From Antedon mediterranea (taxonomy: Eukaryota > Animalia > Echinodermata), in assembly GCF_964355755.1 (NCBI RefSeq), contig NC_092671.1:19406001-19470000 (forward strand): a stretch of 64,000 nt of DNA, read 5' to 3'. The translations under genes and the position numbers were made by a program. Below the pieces are notes generated by a model, which did no database searches, was not told where the DNA came from, and saw only the letters and a list, made by a program, of their open reading frames with translations. Each line of letters begins with the position of its first letter. Within the stretch, counting starts at the first letter, position 1. Below are positions 30,301-45,300 of this stretch, piece after piece.

Positions 30301-33300
30301 GGATGTAAAATAATGAAAAAAATATGTTGCCATTTTTTTTAAGAGCTTAAAGGGTGGTTCCAGGTTTAAAATGAATAGTTTAAACGATATAAAATATATT
30401 CGTTTGTTTCTTGAACGGTAAAAGTTTCAATTTATATAAGCGTCCAGTGAAGCAGAACGGTCTTCCAATTTATAAAGTCAATTTTCTAAGAAAATTCATC
30501 ACAATTGTGTAAAATCATTTGGAGATTCAGTTACGTTTGCTGATTTTCGCACTGACTTAAGGAAAAGCCTTCAAAATCAATGAAGCGTAACGTACACTAT
30601 ACATTCCTGCTGAGGAGAAAGACGACGATACATATGCGCTCTGCTGCCCATGCCTGGCATCGTCACGTGATAAGCAGATAAAGTATACAATACCAAACTG
30701 GTCGGGTCGAGTATACCCCGTCTATAATCACAACATGAACAATGTACAGTATTTGATTGAAGGTCTACTTGACCTACCGGAATGGTATAGATAATATAGC
30801 TCGAATGAGAGAGGTGGAATATTTGTAAACATAAGTATTGCTAATTTTAACAAGTGTAGCCTATAGTAAAAGGCCTGGTGGTAGTATCAATTCGCATAGG
30901 GTCTACTACACTAGCAGCTCAACTGGGCCGGATCGGCTAGGTCTTTCTACTACTAGGTCTACTTTCTTGATGCAGTAATCCGCTTTTTTGGTGAGTAAAC
31001 TATTTTAGGCCTACTTAGACGATCGGGACACCATACTGTACGTGCGGACGGCTCAATTTTGCTTCTTTTTTTTTTTAAAATTCATTAAATATTATATTTT
31101 ATTTCTGTTAAAGGAAAGTCTTTAAACAGTGATTGGGTTTGCTTTTGACAATCCTGGCTTTTTGTTTCACTTTGTATTTTTATGTATTCTGTTGTTATTG
31201 TTATGAGCTGATATTGAATACAGTAAATCAAATCATTTAATCAAGAGTCCAGCCAGTTTGCCGACTCCCAATTTGCCGACTCCCAGTTTGCCCACTCCCA
31301 ATTTGCCAACTGGCTATGTGGATGGTGTATCAAATAGCCTAGTTGGCTTAGAATACCCTTTTGCTAAGGCGTAAACTGAAACGCCCTGTTCAATTTGGTC
31401 CATTAAATGTCTTTAGAAAAAATGGCAACATATTTTTTTCATTCCTTATATTATCAATATCAAGATATGAAATAAAGTCAAAGTTTGCTTTCAACAAAAA
31501 ATATACACGAAATTCATATAAACGACATACCATCCTACACTACAACGTAAATGAGAACATAGGACATGATGATTGCCAATAATATTTTAACCCCAAATTA
31601 CAACTTTTTTTCCTATTATGATATAAAACCTATTTACACATCAATTGTGCCATATTCACTTTAAACAGTTATCTCTCTAAAACTTAAAGGCAACAATTCT
31701 TTCCTATACAAAAGGCATGCTAAAATTCTAGGGCTGCTAGTTTTGGTAAATAATTAAGTAATAAAAATTAATTTATGGCACTTACTTTGAATATTTATAA
31801 CAAATGGTAGAAAACATTATTATATCCAAGTGAAAGTTGTATTATATTTTAACTTGTGTTTCTTCAGACTTACCCCTAGGTTGGTGATTAACAGGTGGTG
31901 CCATCATTCGCTGAAAGTTACCTAATATTCCAGGACTCATTTGACTTAAACCTGGCATCCCCATTCCATTAGGAGCTTGATGGGGTGGATGTGATATGTT
32001 ATGTTCCACTTGAACACATTCATTGGGATATTCATCCTTTACAAGACGACTTGGAGGACCTGTAAATACAAACAAAGATATTCTTGTTAACAATGGCAAT
32101 TGTAGAAAGACAGACATTTTTTGTTCTTGAACTCTCATTTAAAATCTAAAATTATCAGTTACCATAGTGTCTGTTTTTCATTTGTAATTATTACTTTACA
32201 TTTTTGTCTTTTTATATTGAACTTTCAAGTACAGTTAGCACTAATGACAGGTGTTGACCATCATCTGCTTTGACTAAAAATTCTTTTTTCAAGTGACAAT
32301 TTCAGTTGATATTGTCCCTTTGTAATTGTACTCAAAAGACTTTTGAATAAATCAATTTCTGTCAATATCATCTCTAAATCTACTCAATGCTCAATAATTA
32401 CATGTTATATGATATCATTAGCTTCTTATTTTGGAGATGTTCTGGTTGCTCATTTACTATATTCCATATTCCTCAAATTTGAATCAGACAGTTTCCACAA
32501 AGGAAATACTAATATCAACTATAGCAAAAGTGAATTATTAGTGAACACTATCTTATACGAGAGCTTAGATGAACCTTTTGAAAACTTAAACATTCAGGAA
32601 CAACACTCAGAACATTGTAAGTAAATAATTCCTAAACTATTATTCAAATGTATAGTATTACACAGCGTCCCGATCCTTACTGTATATTGAATGAGTGACT
32701 CTATGTACATCAGTGACATGGCTGCAATATTTAATTGAAGAAATCCTATTGGCTATCAATGACCGATCTTTTAATGTACTTGATTGCAGCTTTCCTATTG
32801 GCTAATGAATAACTGACCGTCCTATGTTAATGTCGTACTTAACCTAACATCAATTATGAAGACAATGTAGTTTGCGGTCTAGCCTTCAATGTTGACAAAG
32901 TCTAGTTGGATACAATTTACACTAAAATCAATACATCTAGTTAAATTGGAAAGAGCTATTGAATTTAAAATAGAACTTGTTAATTTTTTATGATGATCAA
33001 ATATAACTACAATATTTTTTTTATGAAATACTTTTGAAGTCAAAGTTCGAACTACGACTAAATTTCGGTTTAAAAATACAGGCGCAAGTTTTGAATTTTT
33101 TACTGGTTTTCATAGATTAAAGTGTATAGTAAAAATACACACAGACGAACTGGTAACAGTAAGCAGAAAAACCAAGTAGCTTGTCCCATGTGCAATCAGT
33201 ATCTATCCTGAGTGGGTTTCCACTCAATCAACCATACACAATGTGGTTTGTGTAAATGATTCTATATTTTTGTAAATTGATGTTTTATTATATCCTTGTT

Positions 33301-42300: not shown

Positions 42301-45300
42301 TCGTCACCCCGGTCCATGCCGTTTATAATGTAATTATAGCCCTATAAATTTATGCGGTTATATTGCATTTTTTTTTTAATGTTAAAATTGTAGTAATGTT
42401 TTAAAATTGCATAAAATGGCAGCTAGACGGCATGGACCGGGGCAAGTGGTATTTTTACTTGAAATGACTGGACCCTACTTGCCCCAACCCACGTATCGTC
42501 ACCCCGGTCCATGCCGTTTATAACGTAATTATAGCCTAATTATGAGTGAAGAAATAAGTGAACAAAATACAATGAACAAAAATGTAAAATAATGATGAAC
42601 AGCAAAGAACAATCAATGTTTTCAAAGTTTATATCATCAAAAAAAAAAAAAATTCAAGATTCAATTTGCTTGAAAGTGTGAAAAGAGTGCCATAAACTGA
42701 TGGTACATCCTTGGCTAACCAAATGGGGTAGTCAAATGGTGTACAGATGTTTACCTAAGTAATAATTATTTTGTATGGAGCATGAAAATATAATTAAAGC
42801 ATTGTTATAGTCTTAAATAATCTGACAGTGACACCCATAGTATTAAGAGGTAAATTTGGTAGTGATATAATGTCGACAATACATCTACACTGTATAGAAA
42901 TACCAGAATTGTTAGTAAGCCAACTTTGAAATGAGCTAGAAAGCAAACAAAAAATAATATATCTCCAATTTTTTTATATTATGTAAATATCATGTAGGAG
43001 ATAATTTTCACAAAATTTCATCTAAAAAGAATTTGTCCCACAAGGTCAAATCCTAGGTCAAATGGAATAGAATAAGTTATACATCTTTTAAATAGTTATA
43101 TCTCAAAAGTAAATAGAAGATTTGGATAGCTTTAACAATTAGCTTTCCAAAGATACCTGTCACAACAAAATCGGTCCACACGTTACGGAGATACGGTCAT
43201 TTAAGTATAGCCCGCCGCGTCGATTTTGCGGAAAATCGCAAAGAAACGACGGCGCGTAGCGCGCGAACCGTTGGTCGTATGGCGCTCAAATTAAAAATTT
43301 CAGGTTTTTTGGCTAAAAATAACCCAAAAACAAAATTTGAGCAAATTTGAAGAAAGTAGGGTTTAAAATGTCATTTTTTTTGGGTGATTTGGTATGGAAT
43401 GACCCTACTGTATAATAGAATTATTTTAAATTCTGATTTGCAGCATCAGCACCAATAACATTTTTTCTTTTAGTGGCTATAGTTTGCATTATATGATCAG
43501 ATAAAGTTCTATTTACACTGGTGTTCCTTCATCTACTTGTTTTATTCTCTTTGTAATTGTACTCAAAAGACTTCTGAATAAATTGTCAAATAAATTTGCT
43601 AGTGCTATTTGTAGTTGTCGATCAATGGCTTATCATGGTCTGACTGAAGAACAGGCTTTTGCAACATTCTTTTATAGAGCGCTAGACACGATCGGTAATT
43701 ATTCAATGTCATTGTTTAATTACAGATCTGATTGGCTAATGTGCTGCTGACCGTTCTACATGTTAATGTCGTACTTGAACCTATATCGCTATATTTTTAC
43801 TACAGCACAATAAAGAGTTTGGTGTCTAGCCTTCAATTATTAAATTCAATTGACACATTAGTAAAACAAATTAATACATTTATTATGTTGTAAACCTACC
43901 AACTAAAGTTAATTAATATTAAATGAGGAGAAAATCGAACCAATGAAAATGAACCAATCTTTGTGGTTATCTTCACAATGTGACCTTGTACATTTTGATT
44001 CATTGTGATAGAAACAAAAGGGATTCACAATTAATTCATACGAACTACTGTATACTGTAGGATTACTGTATTAATACTTAAGTACAGTATCCCTAACATA
44101 ATATAAATTTTTTTTTATTGTGGGTCTCACAACATGAGTTTTGGAAACCAATCAGTTATTTAAAGGAATCGATAAATAATATTTATATAATAAAATAAAT
44201 AATAACAAATACAAGCAAAACAATGCATATAGTTCAAGTCATCCATGCAGCCTAAAGTTTATTTTGAAAGACTTTTCATTGAACCTAATCACAACTCAGG
44301 GGTTAGGGATATTACGTTATCAAATTGAATGGAATTGTATATGAGAAGGTTTTAAAATATATTTGAAAATCCACCATCTTGTATCCAATTTTATAGTTAA
44401 ATTTGTGTCTAAATTCACTAAATTCATCATGTTTTGTTTGTTTTTTATATGAATTGTTACTATTGCACATATCCATCCACATGGGGGGGGGGGGGGGGGG
44501 GACTTGCTTCTAATGATGTCATTCTTTAGCGCTTCATGCACATAGCCTCTAAACGCTTTACATAATTACCCTGGTTATGTTTGGATCAAATATGAATGGA
44601 AATATACTCCCATAATGCAGCCTTAGCACAGTTGTGTTTTGACCTTACTAGGTACCCATTTGTACACCTACAGTAGGTGGAGAGAGGCAAACGTAAGCAA
44701 AATGTCTTGCCAAAGGACACAAGCAATGGATTTGAACTCCTGATCTCATAATAAGTAGTCCGACGTCCAACACACTGCACCACTACCATCATTTAGATAT
44801 CGCAACAGCTGGGTTCAGTGCATGTGAAGCCATTCAATCTGCTGGTCACTACTGACCATCCTACATTTATGATAATGTTGTTTCCGCTCAATACAATGTA
44901 TAGTAATTGCTGTGGCACAGTTTTTACGTTAACAAGGTCAAACAAATTACAATTACTGTATTATGAAGCACAGATTGATAAAACAAATACTACAGTATCA
45001 TCAATGAAAATCAATATACTCTGGTCATCCATGAACTTTAACATTTGTAAATGTATTAATATTAAATGAGGGCAACATTCAACTAATTTAGAAATAAGTA
45101 TAGAATGAGAGTTATTTAATAATAAAGTATTTGGAAACTCTGACCTTGCATAACAAAAATGTATTCATCCTAATGACACAGACAAGAAGTTGAACAATCA
45201 ATAAGACCAGAGAATCTTACAATAAGAGGTATACAGTAGCTAGCCAAAAACAAGCCCATATAATATTTGTTATGTGGCAATTGTTTTAACCTTCCTGAAA

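What the first reader, a model, noticed from the sequence alone, without database searches (positions are those of the whole stretch)
32290..43960. Tandem array of intronless BH3-only-like genes hidden in SMAD4 intron 3
Seen: two intact 172-aa ORFs (33833-34351, 37655-38173), a decayed copy (about 32.3-32.6 kb), an internally deleted copy (about 43.4-44.0 kb) and a fifth promoter block (about 36.6 kb), all on the SMAD4 strand. Each intact unit has CCAAT, TATAAAAG at -31, Inr, ATG with A at -3, and AATAAA about 400 nt after the stop. The protein has [14 protein letters not shown](K/R)N. Established: this fits the BH3 consensus (BAX LKRIGDELD, BAK LAIIGDDIN, BIM LRRIGDEFN); BH3-only proteins share only this motif and are poorly catalogued in invertebrates. 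No BH1/BH2 (NWGR) motif is visible. Inference: a lineage-specific, birth-and-death family of inducible pro-apoptotic BH3-only genes nested in the TGF-beta co-SMAD locus. The dead copy has lost the critical IGD (now FRD).
Basis: partly seen in the sequence, partly recalled or inferred. Interest (0 to 1): 0.88.

Follow-up and report, generated by a model that had tools for sequence, protein, structure and literature searches.

The report
Feather-star BH3-only array inside SMAD4
Inside an intron of the SMAD4 gene of a feather star lies a small cluster of duplicated, apparently unannotated single-exon genes, two intact and three broken, whose protein carries a good match to the BH3 'cell-death switch' motif and likely triggers cell death by blocking Bcl-2-type survival proteins, although neither its expression nor its binding has been shown.

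Summary
The host is a crinoid: SMAD4 exons match Antedon mediterranea SMAD4. Its third coding intron (32060-45924) holds two intact 172-codon ORFs, a decayed copy, a copy lacking 451 nt, and an orphan promoter. The ORFs look coding: GC falls across codon positions as in SMAD4 (p=1.5e-4; 0 of 348 intron windows match), and synonymous changes are modestly enriched between copies. Residues 129-141 meet 8 of 9 constrained positions of a published BH3 consensus (strict motif 11 in 200,000 shuffles); all 16 PDB hits of that region are BAX; language-model neighbours are BMF, BIM, PXT1, PUMA, BIK; no BH1/BH2 or membrane anchor. A module, CGGTCAG-N7-TTARCCAAT, occurs six times in the array, nowhere else in 64 kb. 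DNA depth argues against a dispersed transposon and suggests a third intact copy collapsed in the assembly. Not shown: an own transcript (one RNA-like run, cover explainable by SMAD4 pre-mRNA), homologues in any relative, binding, killing, inducibility, or any link to TGF-beta signalling. Verdict: likely a lineage-specific BH3-only family under birth and death; new member of a known kind.

The parts
32060..45924 (-). SMAD4 coding intron 3, which hosts the array
   Evidence: exon mapping of P0003, splice sites read
32306..32505 (-). Copy A: decayed ORF remnant (frameshifts, stops; BH3 core reads [12 protein letters not shown] then stop)
   Evidence: nhmmer E about 1e-9 to 1e-12 to B/C; codon alignment
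32726..32960 (-). Copy A promoter: intact CGGTCAG-N7-TTARCCAAT module (32797-32819), a second module shortened by 5 nt near 32765, no TATA match
33427..33832 (-). Copy B predicted 3' UTR, AATAAA at 33427-33432, two ATGCTGC sites (33730, 33625)
   Evidence: 3' end predicted only
33833..34351 (-). Copy B intact ORF, 172 aa
   Evidence: coding signature
33929..33967 (-). Copy B BH3 motif, residues 129-141 ([13 protein letters not shown])
34352..34650 (-). Copy B leader and promoter: Inr-like A at 34415, TATAAAAG 34439-34446, module 34502-34524
36480..36610 (-). Orphan (fifth) promoter: own module 36567-36589 and TATATAAA at 36508-36515; no related ORF found downstream
   Evidence: tblastn
36611..36900 (-). 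Passenger copy of copy A's distal promoter (module 36621-36643), part of the recent B/C duplication
37249..37654 (-). Copy C predicted 3' UTR, AATAAA at 37249-37254, two ATGCTGC sites (37552, 37447)
37655..38173 (-). Copy C intact ORF, 172 aa; 7 base differences from B (4 nonsynonymous, 3 synonymous)
37751..37789 (-). Copy C BH3 motif, residues 129-141, followed by a BAX-like D-x-N-x-x-L-Q tail
38174..38474 (-). Copy C leader and promoter: Inr-like A at 38237, TATAAAAG 38261-38268, module 38326-38348
43490..43965 (-). Copy D: promoter (module 43731-43753, TATAAAAG at 43676) and leader kept, ATG through BH3 deleted (451 nt), last ~22 codons kept
   Evidence: (joint 37724-38176)
40796..43405 (.). 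2.6-kb palindromic (foldback) element inserted just 3' of copy D

Best explanation
A crinoid-lineage family of single-exon genes sits in tandem in SMAD4 intron 3, and its intact copies likely encode a BH3-only protein that would promote apoptosis by docking its BH3 helix into the groove of pro-survival Bcl-2-family proteins. Shown: the copies, their promoter modules, the coding signature, the BH3 motif, the lack of BH1/BH2 and of a hydrophobic anchor, and gain and loss of copies by local duplication, deletion and decay. Inferred: each intact unit has its own CCAAT/TATA promoter and makes a ~1-kb unspliced mRNA; the protein is disordered (residues 1-104) with a binding-induced BH3 helix (120-143: V129, L133, I136, I140 into the four pockets, D138 to the conserved Arg) and a short amphipathic, basic C-terminal helix (151-168) that may associate with membranes; it would act mainly as a sensitiser; the bulky M130 at the usually small position and Ile at the fourth pocket hint at Mcl-1-like selectivity (recalled from mammalian peptide work, not tested). 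Residence in SMAD4 is probably incidental.
For: Coding: GC at codon positions 1/2/3 is 0.45/0.40/0.24, ordered as in SMAD4 (0.59/0.50/0.27); chi-square p=1.5e-4, 0 of 348 overlapping intron windows reach the same spread, the overlapping antisense ORF shows none (p=0.97); codon score above 231 of 233 intron windows. Constraint: B vs C 4 nonsynonymous/3 synonymous over 411/105 sites; adding D's tail gives 5-7 nonsynonymous/6 synonymous, p=0.015-0.038; D vs C identity 94% in the ORF tail against 77-82% in the promoter. BH3: 8 of 9 constrained positions of the consensus quoted in PMC3093327; strict pattern 11, core 68, widest 683 of 200,000 shuffles, and the strict pattern occurs only in B and C in six frames of 64 kb; 16 of 16 PDB hits of the 40-residue region are BAX, best E 0.043; ESM Atlas neighbours are BMF, BIM, PXT1, PUMA and BIK clusters, top score 0.86, 9 of the 10 best family hits agree; the AlphaFold2 model has its only confident helix (pLDDT 80-86 in residues 121-140) over the motif. 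Promoter: module found 6 times (4 independent lineages of copy), all in the array on the gene strand, 0.03 expected by chance, with CCAAT 56-62 nt above a TATA box in B, C, D and the orphan promoter. Intronless BH3-only genes are known in cnidarians and candidates in three other echinoderms (PMC8998228).
Against: No homologue anywhere: none at E<=10 in two word-index searches, and the single profile-search hit among 1.84 billion proteins is a six-fold repeated polyprotein judged spurious, although Antedon and Anneissia proteins are in the first collection; so conservation of the motif across species is unshown. No Pfam family matches. The Atlas score is under 0.9 and the tool calls it a lead only; the BAX match is weak (E 0.043 for the trimmed region, 0.63 for the whole protein) and the region was chosen after seeing the motif. 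B vs C alone is not significant (p=0.16) and the pooled test rests on 11-13 changes. In the one RNA-like run, the pieces over the unit (depth 5.8-6.3) are matched by pieces over the promoter and over single-copy intron (5.0), so they can be SMAD4 pre-mRNA or DNA and give no positive support for an own transcript. Three of five copies are dead. M130 breaks the 'small residue' rule.
Confidence: 0.66

Rival explanations
1. The family once encoded a BH3 protein but is now dying: B and C are young copies of a recently silenced or redundant gene and make no useful protein.
For: Three of five copies are broken; the ORF is absent from the protein collection that holds the same species' RefSeq SMAD4 isoforms; B vs C dN/dS about 0.34 is not significantly below 1.
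Against: ORF, Kozak A, TATA, Inr and promoter module are all intact in both B and C; DNA depth suggests recent gain of a third copy; no stop or frameshift appears among the listed differences in the ORF in runs X1 and X5.
Confidence: 0.15
2. A real, expressed disordered protein whose BH3-like helix serves another purpose (a generic amphipathic binding helix), with no role in Bcl-2-regulated death.
For: BH3 is a short degenerate motif; the widest pattern arises in 0.3% of shuffles and has two further chance hits in the window; no Pfam BH3-protein family matches; other short motifs are present (five S/T-P sites, DEAD and VDIDG).
Against: The strict motif is rare (5.5e-5), extends over 26 residues of likeness to BAX, sits where BH3-only proteins carry it, near the C-terminus before a second helix, and the language model independently picks BH3-only clusters.
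Confidence: 0.13
3. The unit is a piece of a dispersed transposon or endogenous virus whose ORF and promoter were copied locally.
For: Intronless, compact promoter-ORF-polyA layout; transposon pieces are interleaved in the array.
Against: DNA contig depth over promoter, ORF and UTR is 2.7-3.0 times single-copy in run X5, against 10- to 1000-fold more over neighbouring repeats, at 85% and 90% likeness; no transposon or viral domain, no relative in viral contigs; no terminal repeats around the unit.
Confidence: 0.04

Closest known systems
Vertebrate BH3-only proteins BMF, BIM, PUMA, BIK (and the BH3-like PXT1)
   Same: Size in the human range of 54-198 aa (PMC7022251), single BH3 near the C-terminus, predicted disorder elsewhere, a second C-terminal helix; nearest Atlas clusters.
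   Different: No detectable sequence homology or Pfam match; single exon; tandem array nested in another gene; no hydrophobic anchor (best 19-residue hydropathy 0.8); no TQT motif in the ORF.
BAX BH3 region
   Same: 26-residue likeness including the D-x-N-x-x-L-Q tail, seen in human and mouse BAX and in the zebrafish Bax peptide listed in PMC6148235, but not in the zBik, zBid, zBad, zBmf, zNoxa or zBok peptides listed there (compared by eye).
   Different: No BH1, BH2, helical bundle or transmembrane helix; the ORF stops 31 codons after the motif.
Candidate invertebrate BH3-only proteins (cnidarian intronless genes; Stichopus 118 aa, Strongylocentrotus 373 aa, Acanthaster 350 aa; PMC8998228)
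   Same: Echinoderm or intronless, motif-only, predicted disordered, untested.
Trichoplax trBak acting as a BH3-only sensitiser (PMC7527217)
   Same: An effector-type BH3 used for sensitising; the paper proposes that some BH3-only proteins arose from multi-motif ancestors.
   Different: trBak keeps the multi-motif fold; the crinoid protein has only the motif.

Membership tests
BH3-only proteins | BH3 motif (hydrophobic-small-x-x-L-x-x-hydrophobic-G-D-acidic-hydrophobic-hydrophilic) | tested here: met
   8 of 9 constrained positions of the consensus quoted in PMC3093327; M130 fails the first small position; shuffles
BH3-only proteins | No BH1/BH2 motifs, no Bcl-2 fold | tested here: met
   No Pfam hit; model shows two helices only; no such motif read in the three frames after the stop
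BH3-only proteins | Intrinsically disordered outside the BH3 | tested here: inconclusive
   pLDDT under 50 for residues 1-104, but a single-sequence model is low for any orphan; composition rich in E, S, T, K, P fits
BH3-only proteins | Binds the groove of pro-survival Bcl-2 proteins through the conserved Leu and Asp | not testable with these tools
BH3-only proteins | BH3-dependent killing | not testable with these tools
   Needs cells
BH3-only proteins | Expressed as its own transcript, raised by death stimuli | tested here: inconclusive
   One RNA-like run, contigs only
Named BH3-only orthology groups (Bim, Bmf, Bad, Puma, Noxa, Bik, Bid) | Sequence homology or Pfam family match | tested here: not met
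Multi-motif effectors (BAX/BAK/BOK) | BH3 plus BH1, BH2, helical bundle and C-terminal anchor | tested here: not met
Dispersed transposon or endogenous virus | High copy number, terminal repeats, mobile-element domains | tested here: not met
   older copies under 85% identity elsewhere in the genome could not be excluded

The most novel reading that the evidence does not exclude
A BH3-only death gene caught being born and turned over: a BAX-derived BH3 segment, stripped of the rest of the Bcl-2 fold, was placed under a new CCAAT/TATA promoter inside SMAD4 in the feather-star lineage and is now expanding by tandem duplication (likely three live copies, three dead), with dosage held down by miR-2013-type sites in its 3' UTR. 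It would be a living example of the proposed route from multi-motif effectors to BH3-only proteins.
Probability: 0.18. Interest if true: 0.78.

Novelty: new member of a known kind. Interest (0 to 1): 0.5.

Why it matters
Invertebrate BH3-only genes share almost nothing beyond one short motif, so they are missed by homology searches and annotation, and the echinoderm candidates are untested (PMC8998228). This locus gives a crinoid candidate with its own internal comparative data (live and dead copies, a footprinted promoter module) and a 26-residue peptide that can be tested in a day. If it binds and kills, it adds a class of echinoderm with tripartite Bcl-2 control, shows that such genes can hide on the same strand inside introns of conserved genes, and, through its BAX-like motif, bears on the open question of how BH3-only proteins arise.

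Tried and rejected
No whole genome was held for this window, so other copies in the genome, the crinoid's Bcl-2 genes and the orthologous intron in relatives could not be searched. Homologue searches: 0 of 36 and 0 of 6 candidates at E<=10 (lengths 94-301 only); 1 hit in the representative library, a 3972-aa protein made of six repeats that looks like a plant pararetrovirus polyprotein (label recalled), rejected because its score is summed over six weak stretches outside the BH3; 0 of 16 viral and 0 of 252 metagenome pattern matches confirmed. Foldseek on the low-confidence model: nothing at E<=0.001. Rfam: none in 32000-46200. Expression: no RNA holder on record was listed among 5 runs; run X1 behaves as RNA (spliced SMAD4 contigs) and has no contig over 38013-38285, which is no evidence either way. 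Complex prediction was not run: no Bcl-2-fold partner was available. A second Atlas search (unnamed clusters) gave no result. Earlier findings of this scan: four look-ups, nothing. The antisense ORFs (34092-34574, 37914-38312) were rejected: different lengths in B and C, no codon-position signal. A 44-nt GT-AG intron that would add a 42-codon frame after the stop was considered and dropped: too short, and an X1 contig runs through without a joint. p53 and FOXO sites: none in the unit promoters. One search used a spacer one base too long (0 hits); one search is the corrected search. Literature: 'BH3-only + echinoderm' (32 papers, 25 listed), 'BH3-only + invertebrate + SMAD4 + intron' (3), 'BH3 + starfish + apoptosis + egg' (5), 'BH3-only + sea urchin + identified' (32, 15 listed), 'crinoid + Bcl-2 + apoptosis' (19, 15 listed), 'Antedon mediterranea + transcriptome + genome' (36, 15 listed): no listed title or abstract start describes this locus or a crinoid BH3-only gene; subscription journals were not searched and no supplements were read.
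Full report
HOST AND PLACE. The window carries SMAD4 on the minus strand (MH1 and MH2 by Pfam). Its first coding exon is 100% identical to Antedon mediterranea SMAD4 and 97% to Anneissia japonica, and the Antedon protein XP_071942899.1 maps exon by exon. 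The host is therefore a feather star, A. mediterranea or a very close relative. The array lies between a 30-nt coding mini-exon (45925-45954) and the exon at 31874-32059, which is coding intron 3. No whole genome was held.

ANATOMY. Reading down the minus strand: copy D (43490-43965), a 2.6-kb foldback element (40796-43405), a reverse-transcriptase fragment (39.2-40.1 kb), copy C (ORF 37655-38173), an orphan promoter (36480-36610), a spacer with repeats, copy B (ORF 33833-34351), copy A (32306-32960), then the SMAD4 exon. B and C share one ~1.9-kb block at 98% identity that also carries the distal part of A's promoter; differences cluster in the first 55 bases of that block and a three-copy contig starts at 32787/36611, so the proximal part of the fifth promoter is an older copy of its own. 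D has lost 451 nt from just before the ATG to just after the BH3 (joint 37724-38176 in DNA run X5; alignment). A is an old pseudogene with frameshifts and stops; its FRD is one of many changes and carries no special message.

COPY NUMBER. In DNA run X5, contigs over the unit stand at 2.67, 2.97 and 2.99 times the single-copy level and those over the spacer and junction at 1.96 and 2.14, which fits three intact-type units and two spacers, one more than assembled. Runs X2 (2.16, 1.86, 1.77; 1.83, 1.95) and X3 (2.21, 1.07, 1.33; 1.37, 1.60) are noisier; all three are one sample, and the tool warns that contig depth is not copy number, so this is likely, not shown. The same data exclude a young dispersed repeat: neighbouring repeats reach depths 10 to 1000 times higher.

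IS IT A GENE? The ORF is not chance: 0 of 20,000 shuffles of its bases are stop-free; 2 of 300 Markov simulations of the intron (trained on sequence that includes the ORFs) give 172 codons. GC by codon position is 0.45/0.40/0.24, like SMAD4's 0.59/0.50/0.27; p=1.5e-4, 0 of 348 overlapping intron windows reach it, and the antisense ORF has none. Between copies, synonymous changes are enriched: 3 of 7 in B vs C (p=0.16 alone), 6 of 11 or 6 of 13 with D's tail, depending on whether two codons at the deletion edge are counted (p=0.015, 0.038). D's ORF tail is 94% identical to C while its promoter is 77-82%, which suggests constraint until D's deletion, though gene conversion could mimic it. The promoter module CGGTCAG-N7-TTARCCAAT has 6 matches in 64 kb, all exact, all in the array and on the gene strand, against 0.03 expected; two pairs are recent duplicates, leaving four independent versions whose seven spacer bases differ while both boxes and the spacing hold. 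CCAAT lies 56-62 nt above a TATA box in B, C, D and the orphan promoter. The factor for CGGTCAG is unknown to me; CCAAT is the usual NF-Y site (recalled). Neither ORF is in the 15-billion-protein collection that holds the same species' RefSeq SMAD4 isoforms, so it seems unannotated.

EXPRESSION. Five runs hold the stretch, none on record as RNA. X1 behaves as RNA, with spliced SMAD4 contigs at depth 35-77. Its pieces over the unit (37310-37688, 37687-38012; depth about 6) are matched by pieces upstream of the predicted start (38286-38460) and over single-copy intron (38884-39158; depth 5). They can be pre-mRNA or DNA. There is thus no positive evidence for an own transcript, and contigs of one run cannot show silence.

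THE PROTEIN. Residues 129-141 ([13 protein letters not shown]) meet 8 of the 9 constrained positions of the BH3 consensus quoted in PMC3093327 (passages read); M130 is bulky where a small residue is usual. The strict, core and widest patterns arise in 11, 68 and 683 of 200,000 shuffles; the strict and core patterns occur only in B and C in all six frames of the window. The 40 residues around the motif hit 16 PDB sequences, all BAX, best E 0.043 over 26 residues; for the whole protein 3 of 4 weak hits are BAX. ESM Atlas features place it next to BMF, BIM, PXT1, PUMA and BIK clusters (top 0.86, below the tool's 0.9 line). A single-sequence AlphaFold2 model is unstructured over 1-104, with helices at 120-143 and 151-168. 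There is no BH1/BH2, Pfam family or hydrophobic anchor; both helices are amphipathic. No homologue was found.

MECHANISM. Most likely (0.66) a BH3-only sensitiser: transcribed from its own CCAAT/TATA promoter as an unspliced ~1-kb mRNA (inferred), translated into a disordered protein whose BH3 folds on binding the groove of a pro-survival Bcl-2 protein through four hydrophobic residues and an Asp-Arg pair, the mode conserved from sponges to mammals (PMC7022251, passages), so freeing BAX/BAK (inferred). Copies arise by unequal exchange and die by deletion and decay (shown by the anatomy). Rivals: a dying family (0.15), a non-apoptotic helix (0.13), a mobile-element piece (0.04). Nothing here ties the genes to SMAD4 signalling or shows inducibility; the only full p53-like site between 32 and 46 kb is at 45237, outside the units.

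WHAT IS KNOWN. [quoted passage not shown] PMC7527217 (passages) argues that some BH3-only proteins arose from a Bak-like ancestor. PMC6148235 (passages) lists zebrafish BH3 peptides; only Bax shares the D-x-N-x-x-L-Q tail among those shown. Six searches, named under Tried and rejected, listed nothing on this locus; only listings were seen for the other papers, and no supplements were read.

VERDICT. Observation confirmed; interpretation partly supported. It works, most likely, like a BH3-only protein; membership rests on the motif and architecture, with binding, killing and expression untested; it is not an orthologue of any named BH3-only family and not a multi-motif effector. New member of a known kind, in an unusual nested birth-and-death array. 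Interest 0.5; 0.78 if the BAX-derived origin holds (probability 0.18).

Noticed in passing
window 45842-45954 (-): SMAD4's mini-exon is duplicated (30 nt and 42 nt, 41 nt apart); RefSeq isoforms X2 and X1 of Antedon SMAD4 each use one of them, so they behave as mutually exclusive exons; the two Anneissia isoforms differ in another way.
   Followed up: yes
window 33730, 33625, 37552, 37447, 43446 (-): ATGCTGC occurs twice in each intact 3' UTR and once in D's, 5 of the 7 minus-strand occurrences in the window. It is the seed match of sea-urchin miR-2013 (sequence in PMC6039759 and PMC11188814, passages). Post hoc, partly duplicated copies, and crinoid miR-2013 was not checked: a lead only.
   Followed up: partly
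ORF residues 102-112 (B 34018-34048, C 37840-37870, -): DEAD and VDIDG, caspase-site-like motifs (consensus recalled), lie about 20 residues before the BH3, reminiscent of BID-type activation by cleavage; not conserved in decayed copy A.
   Followed up: partly
window 40796-43405: 2.6-kb near-perfect palindrome with internal ~195-nt repeats, GGG...CCC ends and a possible 4-bp target duplication TACT; resembles a non-autonomous foldback DNA transposon (Sola2-like ends, label recalled).
   Followed up: partly
window 39200-40085 (-): Fragment of an LTR-retrotransposon reverse transcriptase region (RVT_1, E 2.5e-15).
   Followed up: no
window 33715-33840 and 37537-37662 (-): A 42-codon frame overlapping the stop, shifted by one base, begins with a stretch like the ORF's own TPVNRTL and ends in KSTTQT, which resembles a dynein-light-chain motif (recalled); no evidence that it is read.
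   Followed up: partly
window 54266-55929 (-): RGG-rich gene pieces resembling CHTOP/FOP (label recalled), upstream of SMAD4 on the same strand.
   Followed up: no
window 4283-6941 (-) and 6-233 (-): Decayed LINE-like endonuclease/reverse-transcriptase pieces (Exo_endo_phos_2); an exon resembling the cold-shock protein CSDE1/UNR at the window's start (label recalled).
   Followed up: no
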